Assembly (NCBI GenBank): GCA_018820315.1
Contig: JAHJOQ010000073.1
Span: 13,343-77,342 of the forward strand
Direction: 5' to 3'
Origin: Candidatus Zixiibacteriota bacterium
Lineage (GTDB): Bacteria > Zixibacteria > MSB-5A5 > JAABVY01 > JAHJOQ01
Length of the DNA stretch: 64,000 nucleotides
A program made the position numbers and the translations under genes. Positions within the stretch are counted from its first letter, which is position 1, and each line of letters begins with the position of its first letter. The notes below the pieces were generated by a model that was not told the origin of the DNA, did not search any database, and saw nothing but the letters and a program-made list of their open reading frames with translations. This document shows, in pieces, positions 7,287 to 59,526 of the stretch.

Positions 7287-7289
7287 GAA

Positions 7290-7315
7290 CTTACGATTCC
7301 CGTAGCACTATGTTT
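7290..7315 (-). promoter_or_regulatory. Candidate ECF (sigmaW-type) autoregulatory promoter TGAAAC-N16-CGTA abutting the ECF sigma start codon (implies leaderless or very short leader)
   Basis: On the minus strand the sequence TGAAACatagtgctacgggaatCGTAagtATG ends at the ATG of the ECF sigma gene. This is an exact match to the B. subtilis sigmaW-type consensus TGAAAC-N16-CGTA. No RBS is present, consistent with a leaderless transcript. Confidence 0.4.
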
Positions 7316-7761
7316 CACAAATTCAAGCTGTAAAATAGATTGCATCACCACAAAATACAAACAAAATCTGTTTCTCACCTGTTAGCCTCGATCTGACCGC
7401 TCTGTTTCAATCCTCAACTGATGGTCTTGAATGTGATTAGCTCGCTGCATCGCATTTGGATCGGTTTGAGGCTCACATTTTCAGTGTCTGATCGAGCAAG
7501 GCTTGCCATGACGATAGTTATGGTCGATGTTCCAGACTCTTAGCGAGTAGTGAGGCCGTCCGGTCCGGTGAGGCGCGACGGGCTGAGACAATTTGATGGG
7601 CGCGAGCGTCGAATGACGTCTCGATCTCAATGCACTCGATGCCAGGAGAAGGCCGGGAATACGCCACTATGTTGATAAAATCCCATTATTTATGGATAGA
7701 AACCACTTCGAAGACCAAGTCTTTCGGCAACCATTCGGATCGTCTTGTGCGCATGTGGGTA

Positions 7762-7787
7762 TAACATATTGTCTTGCAATATGTTAC
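7762..7787. promoter_or_regulatory. Perfect 10 bp inverted repeat (TAACATATTG-N6-CAATATGTTA) in a long intergenic region; candidate operator/regulator binding site or RNA hairpin
   Basis: Read directly from sequence: TAACATATTG tcttgc CAATATGTTA. AT-rich and dyad-symmetric, inside a roughly 900 bp non-coding stretch between two divergently organised gene groups. Confidence 0.35.
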
Positions 7788-7931
7788 TGTACTGCGCGAT
7801 TGATCGGATTTTGAGCAGCTTTGCGGCAATCCTCTTGCTCAATACCTGTGAGAGGTCAATTATCGAAATGCAAAACCGATAAATCTGTTAGGGACTTTGC
7901 CCTGACAGAACGGCTGGAAGGGTGAAGTAAA

Positions 7932-8072
7932 ATGGGCAAGGGAAGAAAAGACACATTCAAGCTGCCAAAGAAGACATTTTGGCATTTGTACAGTCTTCAG
8001 GGTCTCGAATCTGAGAAGTTTGTCAAAGTGGTGAACAAGATCCTGAAAAAAGAGTTTACACTGATTAAGTAA
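7932..8072 (+). CDS. Small ORF (46 aa), very lysine-rich basic peptide; hypothetical
   Basis: ATG preceded by GGAAGGGTGA. Translation is MGKGRKDTFKLPKKTFWHLYSLQGLESEKFVKVVNKILKKEFTLIK. It falls below the ORF-track length cutoff and no homolog is recognisable by eye. Confidence 0.25.
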   Translation: MGKGRKDTFKLPKKTFWHLYSLQGLESEKFVKVVNKILKKEFTLIK

Positions 8073-8185
8073 CAAAAGGCCGTTTTGGCGGCAAGTCGGC
8101 AGCTTGTTTCGGCGTTAGGAAGTCCTTTGGGAAGCGACGGGGCTTGCTAAAATGCCCTCAGGGATGAAGGTAGTCGAAATATTTC

Positions 8186-8214
8186 TTGACAAAACAGTTC
8201 AACACTGATAACAT
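8186..8214 (+). promoter_or_regulatory. Sigma-70-like promoter (TTGACA-17-TAACAT) upstream of the M23 peptidase gene
   Basis: TTGACA at 8186-8191, a 17 nt spacer, then TAACAT at 8209-8214. The GAGGA RBS and ATG at 8250 follow. Confidence 0.5.
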
Positions 8215-8249
8215 GCACGGAAATTTTGGCCGTGGTAGAGGACGCGCGA

Positions 8250-10964: not shown

Positions 10965-11041
10965 GCAGTTCTAGAAAGTGAAGGCTGTTTTGCCCGCGAA
11001 TGGACTCACTTGCGGGCAGCAAGAAAGTCAGGTGTATAAGA

Positions 11042-11749
11042 ATGAATAGGAATGCGCCAGAATCGGAAGCTGGGAGGACTGCTGCGATCTCCGAACAGGG
11101 TTCGGCAAAGCAGGGTCAGACCCCGACAAATGGCGCACGGAACACGAAGGATAACAGTGAAGAGGAGACCTTGCACCTGATCGGACTCGTCAAGGCTGGA
11201 GACAACCGGGCGTTCGGAGAGCTTGTGAATCGTTATCAATCTCAGGTCGCCAACATCGCCTATCGGATGGTAAACGATTATGACGACGCCAAGGATGTTA
11301 GTCAATTGGTGTTTGTCAAGACCGCCGATAATATCAACAGCTACGATCCCTCCAAGAGGTTCTCGACATGGCTTTACAGAATTACAGTGAATGCGTCGAT
11401 CGACTATATTCGCAAGCACAGACGTCACAATCATGAACATCTCGACAATTACGCAGACTCGCTGGAAAACCTCGATGCATCTCCGGCTCAGGTCTATCAG
11501 ATGAAGCATCTCCGCTTCGCGATTCTGAAAGCCGCTGATCGACTGAATGCGAAGCAGCGAGCGGCCTTTATTCTGAAAGATATGGAGGGGCACGAGGTGA
11601 GCGAGGTGGCTGAGATACTCAACATGCCGGAAGCGACCGTGCGTTGGTATATCCACCGGGCAAGACTTAGGTTGAGACGTGAATTAAAAGGGCAGTATTC
11701 TCTTCGAACGTTCGGAAGCGAGATGGTGAACAGCCTCATTAGAAATTGA
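11042..11749 (+). CDS. ECF-subfamily RNA polymerase sigma factor with low-complexity N-terminal extension
   Basis: Region 2 motif FGELVNRYQSQVANIAYRMVNDYDDAKDVSQLVFVKT...FSTWLYRITVNASIDYIRKHRR. Region 4 HTH motif VSEVAEILNMPEATVRWYIHRARLRLRREL. The ORF opens at 11000; the ATG at 11042 has a better RBS (AGGTG). No anti-sigma gene is evident downstream. Confidence 0.85.
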   Translation: MNRNAPESEAGRTAAISEQGSAKQGQTPTNGARNTKDNSEEETLHLIGLVKAGDNRAFGELVNRYQSQVANIAYRMVNDYDDAKDVSQLVFVKTADNINSYDPSKRFSTWLYRITVNASIDYIRKHRRHNHEHLDNYADSLENLDASPAQVYQMKHLRFAILKAADRLNAKQRAAFILKDMEGHEVSEVAEILNMPEATVRWYIHRARLRLRRELKGQYSLRTFGSEMVNSLIRN

Positions 11750-11926: not shown

Positions 11927-12964
11927 ATGAAGGCTGTCAATTCGATTCTTGAAGCAATAGGTGGAACTCCGATGATGCGGATCAACAATCTGGTCCCGGA
12001 TGGATGGGCTGATTTGTACGCAAAGGCGGAATATATGAATCCCGGTGGCTCTGTCAAAGACAGGATGGCGCTCTATGTCATCGACGACGCCGAGAAACGC
12101 GGGCTGCTCAAACCGGGCGGAACAATTGTCGAGAATACGTCGGGAAACACGGGTGTCGGTGTGGCGATGGTCGCGGCGGTTAAGGGCTACAAGGCGATAC
12201 TGACCATTCCCGACAAAATGTCACGCGAGAAGATAGACAGGCTGAGGGCATACGGCGCCGAGGTTATTGTCACTCGGACAGATGTTCCACCAGATTCGCC
12301 GGAGTCATACTACGAGATTGCAAAGCGAATTGCAAAAGAGACTCCCAATTCATTCTATCTCGATCAATACCACAACCCGAAAAATATCGAAGCTCACTAC
12401 AACACCACCGGGCCGGAAATTTGGGAGCAGACCGAGGGCAAGCTCGATTATTTCGTTGGTGGAATCGGAACCGGAGGGACAGTCTCTGGAATCGGGAGGT
12501 TCCTCAAGGAGCAAAACCCCAATATCAAAATCATAGCTGTCGATCCTGAAGGGTCGGTGTTTTACGACTATTTCAAGACGGGCAAGCTGATAGAGCCTCA
12601 TGTTTACAAGCTTGAAGGCATCGGCGAGGATATGCTTGTCAAGGCGATGGATTTTGATGTAGTAGACGATATCATTCAGGTCAAAGACAAAGAGTCATTC
12701 CTGATGGCGAGGCGTCTGATGACGGAAGAGGGTATCTATGCGGGAGGATCATCCGGCGCCGCGATGGTTGCTGCTCTCAAGGTTGCTGAAGAAGCGGGCA
12801 GAGGCAGGATGGTAGTGACACTGTTCCCCGACTCTGGCGACAGGTATCTGTCGAAGATGTTCTCGGATGAATGGATGCGCGAAAACGGATTTCTCGACAA
12901 CGACAACATTTCTGGCGACGCACAAGAAGGATCTCGATATGAGCAAAGACAAAACAAGGTTTGA
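11927..12964 (+). CDS. PLP-dependent cysteine synthase / cystathionine beta-synthase family enzyme (CysK/CBS fold; no C-terminal CBS-pair)
   Basis: PLP-lysine motif NPGGSVKDRMALY. Gly-rich loop SGNTGVGVAM. GIGTGGTVSGIG nucleotide-like loop and C-terminal SSG motif. The ORF-track start at 11873 (TTG) was moved to the in-frame ATG at 11927. Confidence 0.8.
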   Translation: MKAVNSILEAIGGTPMMRINNLVPDGWADLYAKAEYMNPGGSVKDRMALYVIDDAEKRGLLKPGGTIVENTSGNTGVGVAMVAAVKGYKAILTIPDKMSREKIDRLRAYGAEVIVTRTDVPPDSPESYYEIAKRIAKETPNSFYLDQYHNPKNIEAHYNTTGPEIWEQTEGKLDYFVGGIGTGGTVSGIGRFLKEQNPNIKIIAVDPEGSVFYDYFKTGKLIEPHVYKLEGIGEDMLVKAMDFDVVDDIIQVKDKESFLMARRLMTEEGIYAGGSSGAAMVAALKVAEEAGRGRMVVTLFPDSGDRYLSKMFSDEWMRENGFLDNDNISGDAQEGSRYEQRQNKV

Positions 12965-14096
12965 AACACGAGCCATTCACGCCGGACAATCTCCGGATCC
13001 ATCCACAGGCGCAATAACAACACCGATATTCCAGACATCGACATATGTTCAGGAGGGTGTCGGAGGACACAAGGGCTATGAGTATTCCCGCACTGACAAT
13101 CCGACCCGCACAGCGCTGCAGGAGTGCCTTGCGTCACTCGAAAACGCAAAGTACGGACTGTCGTTTGCTTCCGGGATGAGCACGATCTCGACGATCATGA
13201 ATCTCCTGAAAGCGGGCGATCATATCGTGTCATCGGATGATGTCTATGGTGGCACGTATCGGATCTTCGAACATGTATTTCGTGACTACGGCCTGAAGTA
13301 CGATTATGTGAATATATCGAATCTCTCTGAAATAGAGAGCGCAATAAAGCCTGAAACAAAGATGGTCTGGGTTGAGACCCCCACTAACCCGCTGCTGAAA
13401 ATCACCGACCTCAAAGGTGTAGCCGAAATTTGCCGAAAGCACAATCTCATTTCCTGTGTAGATAACACTTTTGCGACCCCATACTTCCAGAAGCCTCTTG
13501 ATTACGGCATTGATATTGTGATGCATTCGGTCACAAAATTCCTCGGTGGGCATGCGGATACGGTCGGTGGAGCGCTGATGACATCGAGTGACAAACTCTA
13601 TGACCGTCTGAAGTTCTGCCAGAATGCCGTCGGAGCAATTCCGGGACCGTTCGACTGCTGGCTGGTACTGCGGGGCGTGAAGACGCTTGCTGTGCGCATG
13701 GAGCGGCACGCACAGAATGCCGGTCAAATCGCGAACTGGCTGGAGGCGCATCCTAAAGTCAGGAAAGTCATATATCCGGGATTGAAGTCGCATCCGGGGC
13801 ATGAGATTGCTAAGAAGCAAATGACCGGCTTTGGCGGGCTCATCTCGTTTGAGATCGACGGTTCGCAGGCGGACGCAGTCAAGTTTCTCGAAAATGTTAA
13901 GCTGTTTGCGCTGGCCGAATCGCTGGGAGGTGTCGAATCCCTGATCGAGCATCCCGGTCTGATGACGCATGCGTCTATTCCGGCTGAAGTGCGGCACGAG
14001 AAAGGGCTCTCAGACAGTCTCATCAGGATTTCGGTCGGCATCGAGTATGTCGACGACCTGATAGCTGATCTTGACGACGCGTTGGCTAATCTGTAG
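12939..14096 (+). CDS. Cys/Met-metabolism PLP-dependent enzyme (cystathionine gamma-lyase / gamma-synthase family)
   Basis: N-terminus TRAIHAGQSPDPSTGAITTPIFQTSTY. PLP-lysine region SVTKFLGGHADTVGGAL. The start at 12939 (AAGAAGGA RBS) overlaps the upstream gene by 26 nt, indicating translational coupling. Confidence 0.85.
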   Translation: MSKDKTRFETRAIHAGQSPDPSTGAITTPIFQTSTYVQEGVGGHKGYEYSRTDNPTRTALQECLASLENAKYGLSFASGMSTISTIMNLLKAGDHIVSSDDVYGGTYRIFEHVFRDYGLKYDYVNISNLSEIESAIKPETKMVWVETPTNPLLKITDLKGVAEICRKHNLISCVDNTFATPYFQKPLDYGIDIVMHSVTKFLGGHADTVGGALMTSSDKLYDRLKFCQNAVGAIPGPFDCWLVLRGVKTLAVRMERHAQNAGQIANWLEAHPKVRKVIYPGLKSHPGHEIAKKQMTGFGGLISFEIDGSQADAVKFLENVKLFALAESLGGVESLIEHPGLMTHASIPAEVRHEKGLSDSLIRISVGIEYVDDLIADLDDALANL

Positions 14097-14161: not shown

Positions 14162-14557
14162 ATGGAAAAGATGAAATACACATTCGGTAAGCTGACGAAG
14201 ATGACTTACGACGAGGCGCTTGCAAAGCTGCCTGATCTCCTCAAGGAAGAGGGTTTCGGAGTGCTCACCGAGATCGATGTCAAAGAGACGATGAAGAAGA
14301 AACTTGATGTCGGATTTCGGAAGTACAAGATCTTGGGTGCATGCAATCCGAAGCTTGCATATCAGGCATTTCAAGCCGAGATTGAGATCGGCGCTCTGCT
14401 TCCGTGCAATGTGATAGTGTATGAAGATGACAGCGGCAAGGCTGTTGTATCATTCATGGATCCGCTGATGGCGCTCGGGTTCATTGGTAATGAGAGCCTG
14501 TCAGGCGTTGCTAAAGAAGCCAACGATCGCCTAAGAAGAGTACTGGACAAGATTTGA
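14162..14557 (+). CDS. DUF302-family small protein
   Basis: 131 aa. The sequence pattern (KMTYDEALAKLPDLLKEEGFGVLTEIDV...GALLPCNVIVYEDD...VSFMDP) matches the DUF302 fold. GGAGG RBS sits 5 nt upstream of ATG 14162. Confidence 0.6.
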   Translation: MEKMKYTFGKLTKMTYDEALAKLPDLLKEEGFGVLTEIDVKETMKKKLDVGFRKYKILGACNPKLAYQAFQAEIEIGALLPCNVIVYEDDSGKAVVSFMDPLMALGFIGNESLSGVAKEANDRLRRVLDKI

Positions 14558-14588: not shown

Positions 14589-16793
14589 ATGAAACCAGTT
14601 TACTTAGATTATAACGCCACGACTCCGATCGATCCCGGTGTTGCCGACGCCATGCTGCCGTTTCTCCGGGATGATTTCGGCAACCCGTCAAGCGGGCATT
14701 ACTATGGATATCGCACACGCGCGGCGGTAGAGATTGCGCGCTTGCAGATCGCCTCTCTTCTCGGTTGTGATTCCGATGAAGTGATATTCACAAGTGGCGG
14801 CACCGAATCGAACAACTACGCAATCCGGGGATATGCCTTTGCGAACAGGCATCGAGGACAGCACATAATCACGTCTCAGATCGAACATCCGGCGGTGCTT
14901 GAAGTCTGCAGCTACCTCGAGAAGCACTGTTTCGACATAACGCGCCTCCCAGTCGATGAATTCGGTATGGTGAATCCCTCGGCAGTGGACGATGCGATTC
15001 GCGCCGACACCATTCTCGTGACGATCATGTTGGCAAACAATGAGGTAGGAACAATCCAGCCGATTGCTGAAATAGCAGAGATTCTCACCGACCGTCAAAT
15101 CGGTTTTCACACCGATGCTGCTCAGGCTGTCGGCAAGATTGCGACGCGTGTTAACGATCTCGGAGTCGATATGCTCAGCATAGCGGGGCACAAGCTATAC
15201 GCACCGAAGGGGATCGGCGCGCTGTATGTCCGTCGCGGAATCGAAATCGAGAAATTTATGTTCGGCGCCGATCATGAATCAAATCGACGTGCAGGCACCG
15301 AGAATGTGCTCGAGATAGTCGGTTTAGGCAAGGCATCCGAACTTGCACACGAGAATTTCGATAGCTATGCCTCAAGTATGCGCCGAACACGTGATCGGAT
15401 GCAGGAGCTTCTGCTTGCCGGGTTCCCTTCGATGAAGATTAACGGTCATCTTGAGAAGCGACTGCCGAATACCCTCAGCGTCAGCTTCCCCAGAATCGAA
15501 GCAAACATAATCATTTCTGAGGCTGCCGGTGTTGCAATATCTGCCGGAGCGGCTTGCCATACGGAATCTGTTGATATATCACACGTGCTTGAAGCGATGG
15601 GTATCCCTGAGGATATTGCCATGGGGACATTGCGGATTTCAACCGGCAGATTTACTACCGACAACGACATCGAGAAGGCTTTCGAGGAGCTGAGCCGAGT
15701 TGTGAGTGGACTTTTGTCTGGCGCTAGCGGGAGTGATGGCACATCTGCGAAGCAAGGGGAGTATAAGCTAACCCGATATACACACGGACTTGGATGTGCG
15801 TGCAAGCTGAGACCACAGGTGCTTGAATCAGTCTTGAGCAAACTGCCGATCCCGGATGACAAGAATGTCCTGGTCGGGACAGAGAACGCCGATGACGCCG
15901 CAGTGTATCTAATCAGCGATGATCTGGCTATCGTGCAGACGGTCGATTTCTTCACTCCGGTCGTGGACGATCCATACGATTTCGGTCAGGTGGCTGCAGC
16001 CAATTCGCTCAGCGATATATATGCAATGGGTGCGAAGCCTCTGTTTGCCCTGTCCATAGTAGGCTTCCCATCGAATCGCCTACCACAGTTTGTCCTCGAA
16101 GAGATACTGCGAGGTGCGCATGACAAGGCGAAGGAGGCGGGGATATGCATCATCGGCGGTCATACAGTTGATGACACCGAACCCCAATATGGCCTGGCCG
16201 TTACTGGCAGTGTGCACCCGTCGAAAATCTGGATGAACAGAGGTGCACGCCCCGGTGATAGCATCATCCTGACCAAACCGATTGGCATCGGCATACTGAG
16301 CACAGCCGCTAAGCAGGGGATGATCGATCAGCCCAGCATGGATGAAATTGTGCTGCACATGTCTACGCTTAACAAAGGCGCTGCAGATATTCTTGCGGAC
16401 TACTCCGTTCATGCGTGTACCGATGTGACTGGTTTCGGATTAGCGGGACATCTTCATGAAATGACTCGCGCCAGCGGGGTAGAAGTTGAACTCGATTCTT
16501 CAGTCATTCCGGTGATAGGCGGCGCGCGCGAAGCGGCTGTGGCTGGTGCGATTCCGGGAGGCACTGTTTCGAATATGGAATTTATGGAGGGAAAGATCGA
16601 GTGGGATGACTCGGTCGACCGCATCGCGCGGACTCTTATCTGCGACGCCCAGACTTCCGGCGGCCTCCTGATTGCGCTGGATAGTGCTGATGCTCCACAG
16701 GCAGTCCGGGCGCTTCAGGATGCCGAAGTGAAATACGCGGCTATCATTGGAAAAGTTACCGGAACCGGCGCGGGGAAGATTTTCGTCAAATAG
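14589..16793 (+). CDS. selD: Fusion protein: N-terminal NifS/IscS-like cysteine desulfurase (selenocysteine lyase-like) + C-terminal selenophosphate synthetase SelD (Cys-type active site)
   Basis: N-terminal domain carries the PLP-lysine motif SIAGHKLYAPKGIGALYV and active-site Cys in SAGAACHTES, read as IscS-like. After a Gly/Ser linker (SGLLSGASGSDGTS), the sequence LTRYTHGLGCACKLRPQVLESVL...LVGTENADDAAVYLI...VDFFTPVVDDPYDFGQVAAANSLSDIYAMGAKP aligns closely with E. coli SelD (LTQYSHGAGCGCKISP...DDAAVYD...[33 protein letters not shown]). Confidence 0.85.
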   Translation: MKPVYLDYNATTPIDPGVADAMLPFLRDDFGNPSSGHYYGYRTRAAVEIARLQIASLLGCDSDEVIFTSGGTESNNYAIRGYAFANRHRGQHIITSQIEHPAVLEVCSYLEKHCFDITRLPVDEFGMVNPSAVDDAIRADTILVTIMLANNEVGTIQPIAEIAEILTDRQIGFHTDAAQAVGKIATRVNDLGVDMLSIAGHKLYAPKGIGALYVRRGIEIEKFMFGADHESNRRAGTENVLEIVGLGKASELAHENFDSYASSMRRTRDRMQELLLAGFPSMKINGHLEKRLPNTLSVSFPRIEANIIISEAAGVAISAGAACHTESVDISHVLEAMGIPEDIAMGTLRISTGRFTTDNDIEKAFEELSRVVSGLLSGASGSDGTSAKQGEYKLTRYTHGLGCACKLRPQVLESVLSKLPIPDDKNVLVGTENADDAAVYLISDDLAIVQTVDFFTPVVDDPYDFGQVAAANSLSDIYAMGAKPLFALSIVGFPSNRLPQFVLEEILRGAHDKAKEAGICIIGGHTVDDTEPQYGLAVTGSVHPSKIWMNRGARPGDSIILTKPIGIGILSTAAKQGMIDQPSMDEIVLHMSTLNKGAADILADYSVHACTDVTGFGLAGHLHEMTRASGVEVELDSSVIPVIGGAREAAVAGAIPGGTVSNMEFMEGKIEWDDSVDRIARTLICDAQTSGGLLIALDSADAPQAVRALQDAEVKYAAIIGKVTGTGAGKIFVK

Positions 16794-38563: not shown

Positions 38564-39829
38564 GTGAGGCGAAAAGTGAGTGGAGCGAAAAGTTGGCACA
38601 GACTACTTGAATATCGAGATTGGATATTCGGAGTGATAGCGGCCGCAGCGGCAGTAATTGGCGTATGGAGTTACTTGCAGCAGCCGGAATTGAGATGGCG
38701 ACACATTGAAACCACTGAACATATGACAGAATCGGGAGATCGCGGACAATATACACTGTTAATCGCCAACAAGGGGTTACGTGATGCCTTTAATGTAACG
38801 TTCGTGGCGAGTCTGGAATATGGTCAGTTAGACTCAGCCAATTTCAATCTCGGACTTTCTGATACCCAGTCAGTGGTACTAGGGCAAACTGACATTGAGA
38901 TCGGACTCTCGCGAATACCCAAAGGAAGCGCATCAGAGATCTACGTTTTCGCCAGTTCGCAGGATAGTCTGCCGAGAGAATTGGAAGTTATCAAGCTAAT
39001 AGGTGATGAAGTGCAGGGCGAAGAGTGGGCTCCAGTAACCAGAGTGTGGAAAGCGGTCTATTCAGGAGTTGTTCTTCTTCTACTACTACTGTGTATCATC
39101 AACATTCGCCGATTGCGATTCCCGAAAGTGCGGTCAGGCGGCTATGAATCAAGTATGACGGATATTGTAACGCAAGACGCTTTGGATGAAATCAAGACAA
39201 TAGGGGCATTTGAATTAAAGGCTGATACAGAGGATAGCAGTTATGAATGGAAGACTGAGCATTTAGCTGGCCTTGAGTGGCTCCAGAATAGAATTAAGAA
39301 TGCCAAGAAGCAGATTTCGATTGTATCGTACTCTTTTGTGTCACTTGAGACCCAGCTTGAGCAAGCTCTCGAGGAATATCTTCAGAAAGACAGTACTTGT
39401 CGTTTGCGCATTCTCCTTCTGCAACCGCATTCTCCTAGTTTCGTACAGAAGACACTACTGGAGTCATTCGATCGCCAGGCAGAGTTATTTACGCCGAGTC
39501 AATGGAACAAAGCCGCTATGGAATTGCGAAAGTTGCATGCCCATGATCTAACCCAGACGTTCTCGATTGTTAAGAGATGGTCCAATAAGTACGGTGCCGA
39601 AAGGGTAAAGTGCAGAACGTACTTTGATACGCCGTTATTTGCAGGTTTCCTCTTTGATGATGATGCATTTTGTCTTTCGTCTTACTTCCTCGATCCGGTG
39701 ATGCGTGGGTTCCACAGTCGACGACTTTGCGTGGAAAGCTGCGGCAATTCCGATGATCTGCAAGTTCTGCGGAAGATCTTTCAGAACTGGTTCACTGTTA
39801 AGTTTGCGATGGGGGGCGAAGCCGGTTGA
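38564..39829 (+). CDS. Hypothetical two-TM membrane protein; C-terminal cytoplasmic domain with phospholipase-D-like sequence pattern lacking the catalytic His/Lys (HxK replaced by FxG)
   Basis: TM1 WIFGVIAAAAAVIGVW. An approximately 130 aa beta-rich extracytoplasmic segment. TM2 VVLLLLLLCIINI. The cytoplasmic region ISIVSYSFVSLETQLEQALEEYLQKDSTCRLRILLL ... RVKCRTYFDTPLFAGFLFDDDAFCLSSYFLD parallels the PLD pattern (i.i.spYf...aL..a..rGV.Vrill ... lHaKvmivDd.wa.iGSaNfD) with H replaced by F and K by G. Confidence 0.4.
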   Translation: MRRKVSGAKSWHRLLEYRDWIFGVIAAAAAVIGVWSYLQQPELRWRHIETTEHMTESGDRGQYTLLIANKGLRDAFNVTFVASLEYGQLDSANFNLGLSDTQSVVLGQTDIEIGLSRIPKGSASEIYVFASSQDSLPRELEVIKLIGDEVQGEEWAPVTRVWKAVYSGVVLLLLLLCIINIRRLRFPKVRSGGYESSMTDIVTQDALDEIKTIGAFELKADTEDSSYEWKTEHLAGLEWLQNRIKNAKKQISIVSYSFVSLETQLEQALEEYLQKDSTCRLRILLLQPHSPSFVQKTLLESFDRQAELFTPSQWNKAAMELRKLHAHDLTQTFSIVKRWSNKYGAERVKCRTYFDTPLFAGFLFDDDAFCLSSYFLDPVMRGFHSRRLCVESCGNSDDLQVLRKIFQNWFTVKFAMGGEAG

Positions 39830-39867
39830 AATCTATCTCGATCAACTGGGTAAGGAGAAGTCAACAT

Positions 39868-40551
39868 ATGTACGCCATAGCCAGATCTTACAATGCGCCT
39901 CGCTTGCGAGGCTTAATCAAGAGACTTGACAGTAGTGATCGGTTTACGGCGATTGTTGTTGTAGTCGATAGCGATCGGGACTCAACTGGGACTGCAGACA
40001 GTGTTTCAGCTATGCGGACACGCACATCCATACGAACAGTCCTTCTGGAGAACTATGGATGGTCCAGAGCCTTGAATGCCGGTATTGATGCCTTGCCACG
40101 TCAGCAGCACGAGAATGAGCTTGTCATGATGATATCTAATGAGGTCGCAATCACGATACCTCAAATCGATGCGCTTGCTGAGAAGGCATCCTCGAAAGAT
40201 GCTTCCTGTAGTTACGTACACTTTAAAGGGCGGTCAGAACCGACTTATTTTGTTCCCAGAAACACGTGCGCAGTGTGGAGGAGAGGTGTTTTTGAAAGAG
40301 TGGGACTTTTTGACGAAAGGTTTGATCACAAGACTGGCATGGAGGACTACGAGCTGGTTTTGCGATCGTATAGAGATGCATCACTGCTTCCTTTTCTGGC
40401 CGCGAGAGGCGTTCCTCTTCGGCTTCCGGAGACTCTTAATCTTGCTGAGAAGCTAGATTGGGAAAGCCGCGGGTTGCTCTGGATCAACTCGCTGTATAGC
40501 GAGCATGTTGTATCAGCGATCGAGGCGCACCTTGCTTCGCAGTTTATATAG
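39868..40551 (+). CDS. Glycosyltransferase family 2-like protein (degenerate: DxD motif not evident)
   Basis: AAGGAGAA RBS 8 nt upstream of ATG. TAIVVVVDSDRDSTGT parallels the GT2 DDGSTD segment. ENYGWSRALNAGIDA parallels the NxG..ARN.Gi segment. ERVGLFDERFDHKTGMEDYELVLR parallels GGFDE...gEDyDl..R. The expected DAD/DxD position reads MMISNEV. Confidence 0.45.
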   Translation: MYAIARSYNAPRLRGLIKRLDSSDRFTAIVVVVDSDRDSTGTADSVSAMRTRTSIRTVLLENYGWSRALNAGIDALPRQQHENELVMMISNEVAITIPQIDALAEKASSKDASCSYVHFKGRSEPTYFVPRNTCAVWRRGVFERVGLFDERFDHKTGMEDYELVLRSYRDASLLPFLAARGVPLRLPETLNLAEKLDWESRGLLWINSLYSEHVVSAIEAHLASQFI

Positions 40552-41949: not shown

Positions 41950-42062
41950 TGAGTAAGACACGATTTAGGATATAAGAGGCAGGTTTCGGGCAAACTTACA
42001 CAGCCAGTCGCCTGCACAGCCACCGACCGCGTTTATTATTTGCCTGTTTTACGAAAATGTGA

Positions 42063-42091
42063 TTGCCTTGGATCACCTTTGTATATATTAT
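42063..42091 (+). promoter_or_regulatory. Candidate sigma-70-like promoter (TTGCCT-17-TATTAT) for the methyltransferase gene
   Basis: TTGCCT at 42063-42068, a 17 nt spacer, then TATTAT at 42086-42091, about 25 nt upstream of ATG 42118. Confidence 0.35.
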
Positions 42092-42117
42092 CGATTCGAG
42101 AACATCCACAGGAGAAG

Positions 42118-42972
42118 ATGGTGATCCAAAGAAATCTGTTGCCGGTTAATAAGATAATCTGCGGGAATTGCGAAGAAGTCTTGAAGGGATTCCCTGAGGA
42201 CTCGGTGGATCTTATCGTTACATCTCCACCGTACGCCGATAGCAGGAACAGTACATATGGCGGCATACATCCTGATGAGTATGTGGACTGGTTTTTGCCC
42301 AAGGCAGTTGAATTCCATCGTGTTCTAAAACCTACGGGAACATTCATATTGAACATCAAGGAGAAGGCCGTCCGTGGAGAGCGCCACACTTATGTATTAC
42401 AGTTGATACTCCGGCTCCGCGAAGAGGGTTGGCTTTGGACGGAGGAATTCGTGTGGTACAAGAAGAACTGCTATCCAGGCAAATGGCCGAACAGATTTAG
42501 GGATGCATGGGAACGATGCCTTCAATTCAATAAGCAGAAGAAATTCGCCATGTATCAAGATGAGGTTATGGTGCCGATGGGAGAATGGGCCAAATCGCGG
42601 CTCAAGAACCTCAGCGAAACCGACAAAATCCGGGATGAGTCAAGGGTCGGTAGCGGTTTTGGCAAGAATATTTCCAATTGGCTCCGGAGAGATAAGGCTT
42701 ATCCATCAAATGTCTTGCATTTGGCCACCGAATGTTCTAACAAGAATCACAGCGCGGCATTTCCCTTGTCGCTGCCAGAGTGGTTCATTAAGCTCTTCAC
42801 CAAGAGAGGCGACCTCGTGCTTGATCCCTTTAATGGATCGGGGACTTCTGCCATTGCCGCCAGGAAGCTGGGGCGGAAGTATATCGGCGTGGATTCGAAC
42901 CTCGAGTACTGCTTAATGGCCGAGAGGCTTCTGAAGAGCGAAGACAGGCAGGTAGTCATATGGAACAACTGA
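42118..42972 (+). CDS. DNA methyltransferase, beta-class (N4-cytosine or N6-adenine; SPPY motif IV precedes motif I)
   Basis: NKIICGNCEEVLKGFPEDSVDLIVTSPPY carries motif IV SPPY. The C-terminal LDPFNGSGTSAIAA carries the motif I FxGxG AdoMet site. The order IV then I is typical of the N6_N4_Mtase beta class (e.g. PvuII/RsrI-type). The ORF-track start at 42040 was moved to ATG 42118 (AGGAG RBS). Confidence 0.8.
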   Translation: MVIQRNLLPVNKIICGNCEEVLKGFPEDSVDLIVTSPPYADSRNSTYGGIHPDEYVDWFLPKAVEFHRVLKPTGTFILNIKEKAVRGERHTYVLQLILRLREEGWLWTEEFVWYKKNCYPGKWPNRFRDAWERCLQFNKQKKFAMYQDEVMVPMGEWAKSRLKNLSETDKIRDESRVGSGFGKNISNWLRRDKAYPSNVLHLATECSNKNHSAAFPLSLPEWFIKLFTKRGDLVLDPFNGSGTSAIAARKLGRKYIGVDSNLEYCLMAERLLKSEDRQVVIWNN

Positions 42973-43706
42973 GTTTGAAGGATGTAGAGAAATTTGTTAG
43001 CACGGAAATCGTCACCTTTCACAAGAACAAACTTGAGATTTTGAAGCGGAAAAAACTTCAGAAGCTTCTAAGAGATAAGAATCCGTATCTCTTCAAGGCC
43101 AAGAACATTCTCATCGCCTCGGACTTGGTTACCAACATAATGGATGCTTACCTGTATGCTTCTGAGGAGAAACTCTTCGGTGATTTTCTGGAGGAACTGG
43201 CGATTTTTGTTGCCGGAAAGACATACGGGGGAAGAAAGTCATCGGCAACTGGCATTGACCTAGAGTTTGAGAAGTGTGGTAGACATTATCTGGTTTCAGT
43301 GAAATCTGGACCCAATTGGGGAAACAGCTCTCAACAGAAGAAGCAACAGACTGACTTTCAGAAGGCAGTCGGAGTACTCAAGCAGTCCCGATCTGAAGCT
43401 ATGGTCGAACCAGTTCTGGGAATCTGCTATGGCAAGTCTAAGACGAAGCATCTAAGAGGTTACACAAAGGTCATGGGACAGCTCTTCTGGAATCTTCTTG
43501 GCGGCAATCCAAATCTGTATACTGACATAATTGAACCGTTAGGTCATGATGCGAAGAAGCACAATGAAGAATTCTTGAAACAAAAGGCAGTCATAATCAA
43601 CACATTTACAGCGGAATTCCTGAAGGAATTCTGCGGCAGTGGCCAAATATGCTGGGATAAGCTTGTCAAATTCAATAGTGGAAACATGACGGACGATGCT
43701 TCCTAA
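42960..43706 (+). CDS. Hypothetical protein; candidate cognate Type II restriction endonuclease (by context only)
   Basis: Overlaps the MTase stop by 13 nt, suggesting co-transcription and translational coupling. No database-recognisable motif. The segment TGIDLEFEKCGRHYLVSVKSG could form a divergent PD-(D/E)xK core. AT-richer than the flanks by eye. Confidence 0.35.
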   Translation: MEQLSLKDVEKFVSTEIVTFHKNKLEILKRKKLQKLLRDKNPYLFKAKNILIASDLVTNIMDAYLYASEEKLFGDFLEELAIFVAGKTYGGRKSSATGIDLEFEKCGRHYLVSVKSGPNWGNSSQQKKQQTDFQKAVGVLKQSRSEAMVEPVLGICYGKSKTKHLRGYTKVMGQLFWNLLGGNPNLYTDIIEPLGHDAKKHNEEFLKQKAVIINTFTAEFLKEFCGSGQICWDKLVKFNSGNMTDDAS

Positions 43707-57706: not shown

Positions 57707-58249
57707 ATGAGGAAGTCTGCAATCGTATTCATGGTTGGAATACTGGTCTTAAGCTTTACAATTTATGCAACAGCGCAGACAGGTTCGAAAGGGCAGGCTC
57801 CGAAAGATGAGAATGCTCTCACCTGGCACAAGTACGACAAAGCTCTTGAACTCGCGAAAGAGCAGAACAAGCATGTGATGGTGTTCTTCACAACTACCTG
57901 GTGTGGCTACTGCAAGAAGATGAAGAAAACAACATTCACCGATCCCAAAGTTCTTGCTCTCATGACAGGAAAATTTATACTTGCAGTCGTCGACGGTGAT
58001 TCCAAGAACAAGCTCAATCTGACAGACAAGGAAGGTGAGCCGTTAGTGATGACCGAAAAGCAGCTTTCCCGTGCGTTTGGAGTTAAGGGATATCCTACGA
58101 CAATATTCCTGAAACCGGACGGTACAACGATAGCCCCGATCTCAGGTTATTGGGCGGCTGATCAATTCGAGATAGCCCTGAGATTTGTCAGCACAGATTC
58201 TTACGAAAAGATGTCATTCAAAGACTTCGCCTCTCAGAAGCAGGGATGA
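57707..58249 (+). CDS. Thioredoxin-fold protein with signal peptide (WCGYC active site)
   Basis: Signal MRKSAIVFMVGILVLSFTIYATAQ. CxxC motif TTWCGYCKKMKK. Thioredoxin-like length and pattern (DsbD-gamma/DUF255-like). Confidence 0.7.
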   Translation: MRKSAIVFMVGILVLSFTIYATAQTGSKGQAPKDENALTWHKYDKALELAKEQNKHVMVFFTTTWCGYCKKMKKTTFTDPKVLALMTGKFILAVVDGDSKNKLNLTDKEGEPLVMTEKQLSRAFGVKGYPTTIFLKPDGTTIAPISGYWAADQFEIALRFVSTDSYEKMSFKDFASQKQG

Positions 58250-58265
58250 CGAAGCGTATTCAAAG

Positions 58266-58871
58266 ATGAAAAGAAGATTTTTCTCTACTCTGGCGGGGAG
58301 CTTTGCTTCTATCCTTGCCCTGACTTTCGTGTCACTTATTTGTGGTTGTGGAAACAACGGAGAGACATCCGAGACTTCACCAGTTCCGACCGATACGAGT
58401 GCCTTATCTGCAGCCTCTGTTCAGGGAGCTGCGGAGTCAATTCCTGACAGCCTCGAAGACGGTGATGACCTTGTATTCAAGTGCATCGACGGTGTCACTT
58501 TTTCCCTCTCCGATCTCAGAGGTTACGTTGTGATGATTGATGTCTGGCGGACTGATTGTGATCCATGTATCGAGAGACTCGGGTTTCTTAATGAGTTGCT
58601 GGCTGAGCATGGCGACGACAGGTTCAAAATGATCGGCATTTCACTGGATTTGCCAGACGGAGATGTGCTTCGCCGTTTTGTCGATAGACACCGTTTGCCG
58701 TATCCAATCGTCGCTGGTGTGGGTCAGTTTACGCTGAGTCCCGATCTGCTTGGCGCGTTGCCGGTGACCTACATTTTCGACAAGAACGGGAAGCTTCAGA
58801 GCCGGATCATTGGGAGCTACGAGAAGGAAGTGTACGAAGAACAGATCAGGCTTGTATCAGAAATGGGCTGA
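58266..58871 (+). CDS. TlpA/redoxin-like thiol-disulfide oxidoreductase lipoprotein (CDPC motif)
   Basis: Lipobox LICGC. Redoxin motif VVMIDVWRTDCDPCIERLGFLNEL. ATG 58266 is internal to the ORF-track call. Confidence 0.7.
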   Translation: MKRRFFSTLAGSFASILALTFVSLICGCGNNGETSETSPVPTDTSALSAASVQGAAESIPDSLEDGDDLVFKCIDGVTFSLSDLRGYVVMIDVWRTDCDPCIERLGFLNELLAEHGDDRFKMIGISLDLPDGDVLRRFVDRHRLPYPIVAGVGQFTLSPDLLGALPVTYIFDKNGKLQSRIIGSYEKEVYEEQIRLVSEMG

Positions 58872-58947
58872 TCTGGTATTTCGATTATCAGGTTGTATTG
58901 CAGAAGAAGAGAAGATATTAACATAAGTCACATTGATGGAGGAACTG

Positions 58948-59526
58948 ATGAAGAGAACAGGCAGAACACAGGCAATTCTTATCGCATTCGTGCTCATGGC
59001 ATTTCTTGCCGGATCGCTGATTGCAGGTGATGGATGTCCCGCCAGCAAGGCTAAAGCCGAAGCGAGCAGCACCAAATCGACTGATACTAAGTCCGCTCAG
59101 GCTGGCTGCGCCAAGACATGTGGCTCGAAAGCCGCGGCCGCCTGCACTCCTGCGGAGAAAAAGGCGTGTGGCGCCAGTTTGGCAACGTCCGATAAGCTCG
59201 GCAAGTTGACTCTTGGTGTCGCATACATGACCTGCAATGGCTGTGCGGGCCAAGTCAGCACTGCCCTCAAAGGTGTATCGGGTGTGCAATCTGTGGCCGT
59301 AGATTATCGCACCGGCACGGCTGATGTCGAATATGATGCCAAGTTCGTAACCACGGGCGATCTGGTCAGTGCAGTCGAGAAGGCTGGTTATCATGCCCAG
59401 GTCGGACCCTATTCTGAGAAGGAACTCATGGAATTTGCCAAAGGCGGCAAGCCGGAAGTATCATCCGTGAGCGCCACTCCGACTGTCAAGGCTGTCACGG
59501 CGACGGAGAAGGCTGGTTCTGAATAG
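58948..59526 (+). CDS. Heavy-metal-associated (HMA) domain protein with Cys-rich N-terminal region and signal peptide
   Basis: Signal MKRTGRTQAILIAFVLMAFLAGSLIAG. Cys-rich low-complexity region GCPASKAKAE...AGCAKTCGSKAAAACTPAEKKACG. HMA motif MTCNGCAGQV within a ferredoxin-like beta-alpha-beta-beta-alpha-beta pattern. GGAGG RBS 5 nt upstream. Confidence 0.7.
   Translation: MKRTGRTQAILIAFVLMAFLAGSLIAGDGCPASKAKAEASSTKSTDTKSAQAGCAKTCGSKAAAACTPAEKKACGASLATSDKLGKLTLGVAYMTCNGCAGQVSTALKGVSGVQSVAVDYRTGTADVEYDAKFVTTGDLVSAVEKAGYHAQVGPYSEKELMEFAKGGKPEVSSVSATPTVKAVTATEKAGSE

What the first reader, a model, noticed from the sequence alone, without database searches (positions are those of the whole stretch)
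14589..16793. Single polypeptide fusing an IscS/NifS-like PLP desulfurase to a Cys-type selenophosphate synthetase
A NifS-SelD fusion would allow direct channelling of selenide (or sulfide) from the persulfide/perselenide Cys (SAGAACHTES loop) to the SelD active site. SelD-NifS fusions have been noted only sporadically in comparative genomics. The SelD catalytic residue is Cys (GCACK), so no Sec decoding is required. The linker is a short Gly/Ser stretch, and the reading frame is continuous with no frameshift.
Basis: seen in the sequence. Interest (0 to 1): 0.55.

Follow-up and report, generated by a model that had tools for sequence, protein, structure and literature searches.

The report
NifS-like desulfurase fused to SelD
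This gene really does encode one protein joining a selenium/sulfur-releasing PLP enzyme to selenophosphate synthetase, but the fusion is already described in the literature and is common in uncultured anaerobes, so it is a genuine yet largely ordinary member of a known family.

Summary
Window 14589-16793(+) is one uninterrupted 734-aa ORF with an N-terminal class-I (NifS/IscS-type) PLP desulfurase domain (res 1-378), a Gly/Ser linker of about 17 aa, and a canonical Cys-type SelD (res 393-734).

It is not an assembly artefact. The identical protein is encoded on 6 independent contigs. All 120 best hits, each representing a 90%-identity cluster, are full-length fusions, and species genomes from at least 8 phyla carry one.

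The catalytic residues are invariant: PLP-Lys202, Cys323 and SelD Cys403/Cys405/Lys406. The spacing between the two catalytic cysteines is fixed at 77-83 residues in 122 of 129 proteins.

The architecture is already published (Zhang 2008; Xu 2014; Mariotti 2015), and JGI gives it a product name. This gene is therefore a new member (Zixibacteria) of a known kind.

The most likely function is hand-off of a Cys-bound perselenide from the desulfurase loop to the SelD N-terminal loop. That is inferred, not shown.

Two modest new points emerged:
- The desulfurase loop (GAACHSD) matches mammalian selenocysteine lyase locally, but the Asp146 specificity determinant is absent.
- Only in this Zixibacteria sub-lineage, the gene ends a tight array: CBS-like, cystathionine gamma-lyase, DUF302, then the fusion. 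This resembles the mammalian trans-selenation route.

The parts
14589..16793 (+). Complete NifS-SelD fusion gene (734 aa plus TAG stop)
   Evidence: The identical protein is found on 6 contigs.
14589..15722 (+). Class-I (NifS/IscS-type) PLP-dependent cysteine desulfurase / selenocysteine lyase domain, res 1-378
   Evidence: Pfam PF00266 7e-71. TIGR03402 NifS scores 470 bits, below its 530 cutoff. PDB NFS1 337 bits, IscS 324 bits, SCLY 243 bits. Foldseek TM (target-normalised) about 0.9 to NFS1/IscS.
14883..14891 (+). E99-H100-P101. P101 occupies the position of hSCL Asp146 and IscS Lys.
   Evidence: EHP is present in 127 of 129 fusion proteins. The hSCL local sequence VEHD146S comes from the primers in PMC3266270.
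15183..15194 (+). A199-G-H-K202: the PLP-binding lysine motif. A199 sits at the hSCL Val256 / IscS Ser position.
   Evidence: H201 and K202 are invariant. AGHK is present in 125 of 129 proteins.
15540..15569 (+). Mobile active-site loop SAGAAC323H324TES, carrying the persulfide/perselenide cysteine
   Evidence: C323 and H324 are invariant. pLDDT is below 50 at res 322-328. The family consensus GAACHSD is identical to hSCL GAAC388H389SD.
15714..15764 (+). Inter-domain Gly/Ser-rich linker, res 376-392
   Evidence: Its sequence varies but its length is conserved. pLDDT is below 50 at res 379-390. Cys323-to-Cys403 spacing is 77-83 aa in 122 of 129 proteins.
15765..16790 (+). Selenophosphate synthetase (SelD; selenide, water dikinase) domain, res 393-734
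   Evidence: TIGR00476 scores 397.9 bits against a cutoff of 125. E. coli SelD 3U0O scores 276 bits.
15786..15806 (+). SelD N-terminal glycine-rich loop GLGC403AC405K406, matching E. coli Cys17, Cys19 and Lys20
   Evidence: Alignment to 3U0O. Invariant in the family. pLDDT is below 50 at res 401-408.
11927..12964 (+). CBS-like PALP gene, the first gene of the lineage-specific array. Context only; its membership in a functional unit with the fusion is uncertain.
   Evidence: TIGR01137 cystathionine beta-synthase scores 460 bits, below its 510 cutoff. The gene is called in L083-85 and L087.
12939..14096 (+). Cystathionine gamma-lyase/synthase family gene (Cys_Met_Meta_PP); overlaps the CBS-like gene by 26 nt
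   Evidence: PF01053 3.6e-160. PRK07811 scores 547 bits against a cutoff of 513. Synteny.
14162..14557 (+). DUF302 protein (TT1751-like) with two conserved Cys; ends 31 nt upstream of the fusion start
   Evidence: PF03625 1.5e-27. PDB 1J3M 8e-25. Adjacent to the fusion in 4 of 6 close lineages and absent elsewhere.

Best explanation
The gene encodes a bifunctional selenium-activating enzyme and serves as the organism's selD. The proposed steps are as follows. (1) The N-terminal PLP domain binds free L-selenocysteine, and possibly L-cysteine, as an external aldimine on Lys202. (2) Cys323, on the mobile loop, abstracts the chalcogen to give alanine and an enzyme-bound Cys323-S-Se(-). (3) The loop swings out and passes the Se to Cys403 (or Cys405) on the equally mobile glycine-rich N-terminal loop of the SelD domain, which begins only about 20 residues after the last helix of the desulfurase. 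(4) SelD uses ATP, with Lys406 and the conserved Asp cluster, to form selenophosphate, AMP and Pi. Selenophosphate then feeds Sec-tRNA and/or 2-selenouridine synthesis. The fusion keeps toxic, very scarce selenide protein-bound. Shown here: the domain identities, the conservation of the catalytic residues, the fixed tether, the predicted flexibility of the three moving parts, and the wide distribution. Inferred: the substrate, the direct transfer between the two domains, and the downstream use of the product.
For: Both domains are intact and canonical. K202, C323, H324, C403, C405, K406 and the SelD Asp residues are invariant in 32 diverse fusions, and the motifs hold in 129. The Cys-to-Cys spacing is 77-83 aa in 122 of 129 proteins while the linker sequence varies freely, which suggests selection on tether length. 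In the AF2 model both domains fold confidently (pLDDT 85.6) but have no fixed mutual pose (pTM 0.55), and the segments with pLDDT below 50 include the Cys323 loop, the linker and the SelD Cys/Lys loop; two other NifS-half stretches (225-227 and 230-237) are also below 50. The gene sits alone in variable housekeeping contexts, as selD genes do. In one Bacteroidota genome (L011) a tRNA-Sec gene lies about 1.2 kb upstream. Literature: NifS-like proteins deliver Se to SelD in vitro (Lacourciere 2000, cited in PMC4561486). hSCL has a dynamic Cys loop proposed to deliver Se directly to SPS (PMC3266270). Genomes with this fusion were reported to contain Sec machinery and selenoproteins (PMC4561486, PMC3916229).
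Against: There are no biochemical data for any NifS-SelD fusion in the literature I could search. The 64-kb window has no selA, selB, selU, tRNA-Sec or selenoprotein candidate, so the downstream use of selenophosphate in this organism is not documented here. The hSCL selenium-specificity determinant Asp146 is replaced by Pro101, so Sec selectivity is not supported. Stand-alone enzymes with the same EHP/AACH signature are common and not linked to selD, so the domain may be a general desulfurase. A monomer model cannot show whether the two loops can meet within one chain or across a dimer.
Confidence: 0.7

Rival explanations
1. The N-terminal domain is the cell's general cysteine desulfurase, supplying sulfur for Fe-S clusters, thiouridine and other cofactors, and it happens to be fused to SelD. 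Selenium would be mobilised only as a side activity, and the fusion would confer co-expression or stoichiometry, not channelling.
For: The domain is globally closest to NFS1/IscS/NifS (324-337 bits) and no closer to SCLY than an ordinary NifS is (243 vs 249 bits). The same EHP...AACH signature occurs in many stand-alone genes with no selD nearby. Class-I desulfurases generally accept both Cys and Sec (PMC3266270). In this lineage the gene follows a Met-to-Cys (reverse transsulfuration) gene pair, which makes cysteine.
Against: No NifU/IscU scaffold recurs next to either the fusion or its stand-alone relatives. The strict conservation of tether length and the invariant SelD acceptor Cys are hard to explain without transfer between the domains. 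Tethering a housekeeping desulfurase to SelD would be expected to hinder docking of other acceptors.
Confidence: 0.2
2. In this Zixibacteria sub-lineage the fusion is the last enzyme of a dedicated organoselenium salvage ('trans-selenation') operon. The CBS-like enzyme and CGL would convert seleno-homocysteine (from SeMet) through selenocystathionine to Sec. DUF302 would act as a carrier or chaperone. The fusion would then convert Sec directly to selenophosphate.
For: The four genes form a tight same-strand array: a 26-nt overlap, then 65-nt and 31-nt gaps, with no terminator-like site on the + strand. The array is conserved down to 65-69% fusion identity (L087 has the full array; L088 has CGL-DUF302-fusion; L082 has DUF302-fusion). 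The order of reactions mirrors the mammalian CBS, CGL, SCLY, SEPHS2 route (PMC6770646). The fusion's loop GAACHSD equals the SCLY loop. DUF302 carries two conserved Cys and recurs in sox sulfur-oxidation clusters (PMC5037610).
Against: The array is missing from 2 of 6 close relatives and from all 16 fusion loci in other phyla. CBS and CGL are ordinary sulfur enzymes, and adjacency to a Cys-consuming desulfurase is explained equally well by sulfur metabolism. Co-transcription has not been shown.
Confidence: 0.2
3. The fusion is an assembly or annotation artefact that joins two adjacent genes.
For: None found.
Against: The identical ORF is present in 6 independent assemblies. There are 129 full-length homologues with conserved junction length. 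Species genomes from at least 8 phyla carry it. Both the junction and the N-terminus are conserved.
Confidence: 0.01

Closest known systems
Published NifS-SelD (NifS-SPS) fusion proteins: Geobacter sp. FRC-32, Caldithrix abyssi, and the protists Acanthamoeba, Naegleria and Spironucleus (PMC2398784, PMC4561486, PMC3916229)
   Same: Same two domains, with NifS N-terminal to SelD as PMC4561486 reports for all its cases. Same proposed role. Calditrichaeota/Caldithrix proteins are among the 60%-identical full-length hits. Divergent variants with low-complexity inserts that could be of protist origin (their source was not identified) are among the 50%-cluster representatives.
   Different: This is a Zixibacteria member. 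It is Cys-type, whereas Geobacter FRC-32 has Sec (CxxU). The papers list only a handful of cases, while current databases hold well over a hundred clusters in at least 8 phyla. PMC3916229 describes the Spironucleus NifS part as C-terminal.
Stand-alone bacterial SelD (E. coli SelD, PDB 3U0O; A. aeolicus SelD, 2YYE/2ZOD)
   Same: 276 bits to E. coli SelD. The GxGCxCK loop aligns with Cys17/Cys19/Lys20. The AIRS and AIRS_C folds and the ATP/metal Asp residues are conserved.
   Different: The flexible N-terminus is not free here; it is tethered to a desulfurase.
Class-I cysteine desulfurases NifS / IscS / NFS1
   Same: Fold (TM about 0.9), PLP Lys, and a long mobile Cys loop.
   Different: It scores below every NCBIfam equivalog cutoff. 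The loop is GAACH(S/T)(D/E), not SSGSACTS. It has EHP and AGHK where IscS has EHK and SGHK. No NifU/IscU partner gene is nearby.
Eukaryotic selenocysteine lyase SCLY (PDB 3GZC, 3A9X) working with SEPHS2
   Same: The local active-site loop GAAC-H-S-D is identical to the family consensus. It is a group-I enzyme with a dynamic Cys segment proposed to deliver Se to SPS.
   Different: The Asp146 specificity residue is Pro and Val256 is Ala. Global similarity is no higher than for ordinary NifS. SCLY and SEPHS2 are separate proteins.
Ndh-SelD fusion and the SclA-SelD gene neighbourhood of the SDMH trait (PMC2398784, PMC2276186, bioRxiv 10.1101/2020.02.07.939272)
   Same: These are other cases in which SelD is physically or genetically coupled to a putative Se-delivery partner.
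   Different: Different partners: an FAD oxidoreductase, or a group-II NifS-like SclA. TIGR04369 scores only 158 bits against a cutoff of 700, and NF040779 SclA 88 bits against 525.

Membership tests
SelD / selenophosphate synthetase (TIGR00476) | Score above the curated equivalog cutoff over the full model | tested here: met
   397.9 bits against a cutoff of 125, model positions 1-309 of 311. PRK00943 scores 373.6 against 299.
SelD / selenophosphate synthetase (TIGR00476) | N-terminal glycine-rich loop with catalytic Cys/Sec and Lys (E. coli Cys17 and Lys20) | tested here: met
   GLGC403AC405K406 aligns to GAGC17GC19K20 of 3U0O. It is invariant in the family.
SelD / selenophosphate synthetase (TIGR00476) | ATP-dependent formation of selenophosphate from a reduced Se donor | not testable with these tools
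   This needs an enzyme assay.
SelD / selenophosphate synthetase (TIGR00476) | Co-occurrence with a selenophosphate-consuming trait (selA/selB/tRNA-Sec, selU, or yqeB/yqeC) | tested here: inconclusive
   None is present in the 64-kb window. A tRNA-Sec gene lies next to the fusion in L011. The literature reports Sec machinery in fusion-bearing genomes (PMC4561486).
Class-I (group I) NifS/IscS-type cysteine desulfurase | Aminotran_5 fold with a PLP-binding Lys (HK motif) | tested here: met
   PF00266 7e-71. H201 and K202 are invariant. Foldseek TM about 0.9 to NFS1/IscS.
Class-I (group I) NifS/IscS-type cysteine desulfurase | Catalytic Cys on the long group-I loop (consensus SSGSACTS) | tested here: met
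   The Cys is present and invariant and the loop has group-I length, but its sequence is the variant SAGAACH(S/T).
IscS or NifS equivalogs (TIGR02006, TIGR03402) | Score above the curated equivalog cutoff | tested here: not met
   NifS 470.2 against 530.75; IscS 389.5 against 643.2; nifS_epsilon 338.6 against 587.7. I therefore file it only at the class-I superfamily level.
Sec-specific selenocysteine lyase (SCLY type) | Asp at the hSCL-146 position, which is necessary and sufficient for Sec specificity (PMC3266270) | tested here: not met
   The position is Pro101: EHP in 127 of 129 fusions. The alignment is anchored on the invariant EH, using the hSCL sequence VEHD146S from the paper's primers.
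Sec-specific selenocysteine lyase (SCLY type) | His after the catalytic Cys (hSCL H389) and Val before GHK (hSCL V256) | tested here: inconclusive
   H324 is present and invariant. The V256 position is Ala199. According to the paper, neither residue confers specificity on its own.
NifS-SelD fusion family (Zhang 2008; Mariotti 2015) | A NifS-like domain N-terminal to SelD in a single ORF, conserved across genomes | tested here: met

The most novel reading that the evidence does not exclude
In a sub-lineage of Zixibacteria, the fusion is the terminal enzyme of a four-gene bacterial 'trans-selenation' operon: a CBS-like enzyme, cystathionine gamma-lyase, DUF302, and NifS-SelD. The operon would convert methionine-derived organoselenium to selenophosphate without releasing free selenide. 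DUF302 would be a previously unrecognised chalcogen carrier, and the SCLY-type GAACH loop would mark a bacterial clade of Se-handling desulfurases.
Probability: 0.15. Interest if true: 0.6.

Novelty: new member of a known kind. Interest (0 to 1): 0.3.

Why it matters
How selenium, which is scarce, toxic and chemically similar to sulfur, reaches SelD in vivo remains an open question in selenoprotein biology. A natural covalent fusion of donor and acceptor is the cleanest system for studying that hand-off, both structurally and kinetically. This report shows the fusion is not a curiosity of two genomes. It is a tight, widely distributed family with a fixed tether, so many orthologues are available for expression. 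It also highlights a lineage-specific link to transsulfuration genes and DUF302 that could be tested. The gene itself adds no new principle.

Tried and rejected
- **Assembly artefact:** rejected.
- **Family-wide operon partners:** tblastn with the window's CGL, DUF302, L25, Prs and S9 proteins against 80 loci found none near other fusions. A Pfam census of 114 ORFs flanking 16 fusions found no recurrent family. A DUF302 HMM gave no hits in 18 loci.
- **Selenium genes in the window:** there is no tRNA, no Rfam hit, and no selA, selB, selU or yqeB/C among the roughly 50 ORFs scanned. A UGA read-through screen gave no credible selenoprotein.
- **SCLY orthology of the N-terminal domain:** rejected. 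SCLY scores 243 bits with this domain and 249 bits with an ordinary NifS, and Asp146 is absent.
- **L016 as a truncated or Sec-type fusion:** it is simply a stand-alone 395-aa NifS-like gene.
- **Riboswitch upstream of the CBS-like gene:** none found, even at E<=1.
- **Stand-alone AACH-clade neighbours:** only a weak enrichment of DsrE (5) and rhodanese (3) among 130 ORFs. This is suggestive, not conclusive.
- **Sec-type (U) variants:** none were found among the retrieved fusions, but gene callers would truncate such genes, so this result is uninformative.
- **AF2 monomer model:** it gave no confident inter-domain pose (pTM 0.55), so loop-to-loop reach could not be evaluated.
Full report
**Observation.** The window contains a single ORF at 14589-16793 on the + strand: 734 aa, ATG start, TAG stop. 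Pfam finds Aminotran_5 at residues 4-363, AIRS at 435-542 and AIRS_C at 554-734. With NCBIfam, the C-terminal half passes the SelD equivalog model (TIGR00476, 397.9 bits against a cutoff of 125). The N-terminal half hits NifS (470 bits), DndA and IscS (389 bits) strongly but stays below every equivalog cutoff.

**Not an artefact.** The identical 734-aa protein is encoded on six independently assembled contigs, including two NCBI MAGs and a Logan SRA assembly. A search of 5.8 billion protein clusters returned 120 best hits, and all of them are full-length (about 734 aa, 58-99% identity) with the same three Pfam domains. Source names include 'cysteine desulfurase NifS/selenium donor protein' (JGI) and 'selenide, water dikinase SelD' (NCBI MAGs of Zixibacteria, Eisenbacteria, Caldithrix/Calditrichaeota and Bacteroidales). 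The 99%-identical hit is from a Candidatus Zixiibacteriota MAG, which identifies the window's organism. Among GTDB species representatives, full-length fusions occur in Zixibacteria, Caldisericaceae, Calditrichaceae, Phycisphaeraceae, Anaerolineae, Lentimicrobium/Bacteroidales, Deltaproteobacteria and KSB1. At 50% identity the full-length fusions collapse into roughly ten clusters. The family is therefore tight in sequence although it is spread across phyla.

**Anatomy and conservation.** In an alignment of 32 diverse fusions, many residues are invariant: the PLP lysine (H201-K202), the loop cysteine and the following histidine (C323-H324), the SelD loop G400-L-G-C403-A-C405-K406, and many SelD aspartates. 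The SelD half aligns with E. coli SelD (PDB 3U0O, 276 bits), with C403, C405 and K406 opposite Cys17, Cys19 and Lys20. Across 129 fusion-length proteins, the distance between the two catalytic cysteines is 77-83 residues in 122 cases (mode 80, n=74), even though the linker sequence is not conserved. All retrieved members are Cys-type. An AlphaFold2 model built on the family alignment folds both domains confidently (mean pLDDT 85.6) but gives no defined inter-domain pose (pTM 0.55). The segments with pLDDT below 50 include the desulfurase Cys loop (322-328), the linker (379-390) and the SelD Cys/Lys loop (401-408); two further stretches in the NifS half (225-227 and 230-237) are also below 50. 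Foldseek against the PDB finds class-I desulfurases for the N-terminal half (target TM about 0.9), and no solved chain spans both halves.

**What kind of desulfurase.** The N-terminal domain is globally closest to NFS1, IscS and archaeal IscS (324-337 bits). Human and rat selenocysteine lyase score 243 and 237 bits. I compared the active-site signatures in 80 fetched loci. The fusion domains, and many stand-alone NifS-like genes 46-63% identical to them, share EH-P, A-GHK and GAAC-H. Canonical IscS has EH-K, S-GHK and SSGSAC-T. Collins et al. 2012 (PMC3266270) identified D146, V256 and H389 as the residues that distinguish Sec-specific human SCL from non-specific desulfurases, with D146 necessary and sufficient. 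Their mutagenesis primers give the hSCL local sequences VEHD146S, TIV256GHKF and GAAC388H389SDH. The fusion family therefore shares the SCL loop exactly (consensus GAACHSD) and the His, but it has Pro at the D146 position and Ala at the V256 position. An ordinary NifS-type enzyme scores as well against SCLY (249 bits) as the fusion domain does, and an IscS-type enzyme scores 184-188 bits. The SCL resemblance is thus local, not orthology, and Sec specificity cannot be claimed. Stand-alone members of the AACH clade have no recurrent NifU/IscU neighbour. The most frequent neighbour families are the persulfide-relay proteins DsrE (5) and rhodanese (3), among 130 flanking ORFs from 38 loci. This is a weak hint that the clade serves dedicated acceptors.

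**Context.** Across the family there is no conserved neighbourhood. One Bacteroidota genome has a tRNA-Sec gene about 1.2 kb upstream of the fusion. The 64-kb window is core housekeeping: sigma factors, GlnA, GatAB, PurC/H, DnaB, DnaE, Tgt, Def/Fmt, RNase G, a restriction-modification pair and others. It has no selA, selB, selU, yqeB/C, tRNA, Rfam hit or credible UGA-containing ORF. Within the window's own sub-lineage there is a pattern. The gene terminates a tight same-strand array: an ECF sigma factor (11000-11749), a CBS-like PALP enzyme (11927-12964; TIGR01137 460 bits, below its 510 cutoff), a cystathionine gamma-lyase/synthase family enzyme (12939-14096, overlapping the previous gene by 26 nt), DUF302 (14162-14557, after a 65-nt gap), and the fusion (after a 31-nt gap). 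No terminator-like site lies on the + strand within the array, and the convergent L25 gene follows it. The full array recurs at 69% fusion identity (L087). CGL-DUF302-fusion recurs at 65% (L088) and DUF302-fusion at 67% (L082). Two other relatives lack all three upstream genes (L081, L086). DUF302 has no known function, carries two conserved cysteines here, has a solved structure (TT1751, 1J3M), and recurs in sox clusters of sulfur oxidisers (PMC5037610).

**Mechanism.** The best-supported reading is the one already proposed in the literature. The PLP domain strips Se (or S) from free selenocysteine (or cysteine) onto Cys323. The mobile loop then hands it to Cys403 on the flexible SelD N-terminal loop. 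SelD finally makes selenophosphate with ATP. What is shown here is the domain identities, the intact catalytic residues, the fixed tether, the predicted flexibility and the wide conservation. What is inferred is the substrate, the transfer between the domains and the downstream use. The main rival is that the N-terminal domain is a general cysteine desulfurase whose fusion to SelD is incidental. This rival draws support from the absence of Asp146, from the many unlinked stand-alone homologues, and from the adjacency to cysteine-forming enzymes. A more novel reading also cannot be excluded: in this lineage, CBS-like, CGL, DUF302 and the fusion could form a trans-selenation operon analogous to the mammalian CBS, CGL, SCLY, SEPHS2 route (PMC6770646). 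It rests on synteny in only 3-4 of 6 close lineages.

**Comparison with the literature, and verdict.** NifS-SelD fusions were reported in Geobacter sp. FRC-32 (Sec-type) by Zhang et al. 2008 (PMC2398784). They were reported in Spironucleus salmonicida and Caldithrix abyssi by Xu et al. 2014 (PMC3916229). Mariotti et al. 2015 listed two prokaryotic instances plus Acanthamoeba and Naegleria, and attributed the protist copies to horizontal transfer from bacteria (PMC4561486). I found no biochemical or structural characterisation of a fusion in the searchable library. The gene in this window is therefore a new member of a known kind. It is genuine, intact and probably functional, and its architecture and proposed role are already on record. 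The additions from this work are modest: the family is far more abundant and widespread than the papers state, the Cys-to-Cys tether length is conserved, the active-site loop is SCL-like but lacks the SCL specificity residue, and a lineage-restricted link to transsulfuration genes and DUF302 exists. Interest is scored at 0.3.

Noticed in passing
window 11927-12964 (+) and 12939-14096 (+): A CBS-like PALP gene overlaps by 26 nt a cystathionine gamma-lyase/synthase family gene. Together they look like a reverse-transsulfuration pair (homocysteine to cysteine). They lie directly upstream of DUF302 and the fusion, and downstream of an ECF sigma factor. The longest-ORF start of the CGL gene (12867) is probably wrong; the start conserved in relatives is 12939 (MSKDKTRF).
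   Followed up: yes
window 14162-14557 (+): A DUF302 (TT1751-like) protein with two conserved Cys (ILGACNP, LLPCNV) ends 31 nt upstream of the fusion. It is adjacent to the fusion in 4 of 6 close Zixibacteria lineages but in no other phylum. DUF302 also recurs in sox clusters of sulfur oxidisers (PMC5037610). It may be a chalcogen-handling protein.
   Followed up: partly
loci L016-L056 (stand-alone NifS-like genes): A large clade of stand-alone class-I desulfurases shares the EHP / AGHK / (A/S)ACH signature, a Cys-His loop as in eukaryotic selenocysteine lyase. It is distinct from both IscS and classical NifS. DsrE-like and rhodanese genes are its most frequent neighbours, and NifU/IscU does not recur. 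Its function appears to be uncharacterised.
   Followed up: partly
L011 8755-8851 (+): In an uncultured Bacteroidota genome, a tRNA-Sec (anticodon TCA) gene lies about 1.2 kb upstream of the NifS-SelD fusion, with a dihydroorotate-dehydrogenase-like ORF between them.
   Followed up: partly
window 7287-8225: A 939-nt stretch between an ECF sigma factor gene (-) and an M23 peptidase gene (+) has no ORF of 90 aa or more and no significant Rfam match. The only hit is a chance-level CRISPR-DR9 match (E=0.72). Relatives have just a 46-aa gene called there.
   Followed up: partly
window 42040-43706 (+): An N6/N4 DNA methylase and an EcoO109I-type restriction endonuclease form a type II restriction-modification pair. 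They sit in a region of lower GC (about 0.47 over 38-44 kb), next to two ORFs with no Pfam match (38564-40551) and a polysaccharide-biosynthesis (Polysacc_synt family) membrane protein gene. This may be a horizontally acquired island.
   Followed up: no
window 58185-59526 (+): An AhpC/TSA-redoxin-like protein and an HMA (heavy-metal-associated) domain protein each have an N-terminal extension of about 95 aa before the recognised domain. A 591-nt gap precedes them. No in-frame UGA was seen.
   Followed up: partly
proteins P0125, P0129, P0132, P0133: These are divergent fusion variants of 688-919 aa, with low-complexity Asn/Asp/Glu-rich inserts between the Cys loop and the SelD motif. The Cys-to-Cys spacing is 103-193 aa. 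They could be the protist copies described as horizontal transfers by Mariotti 2015, but their source organisms were not identified.
   Followed up: no
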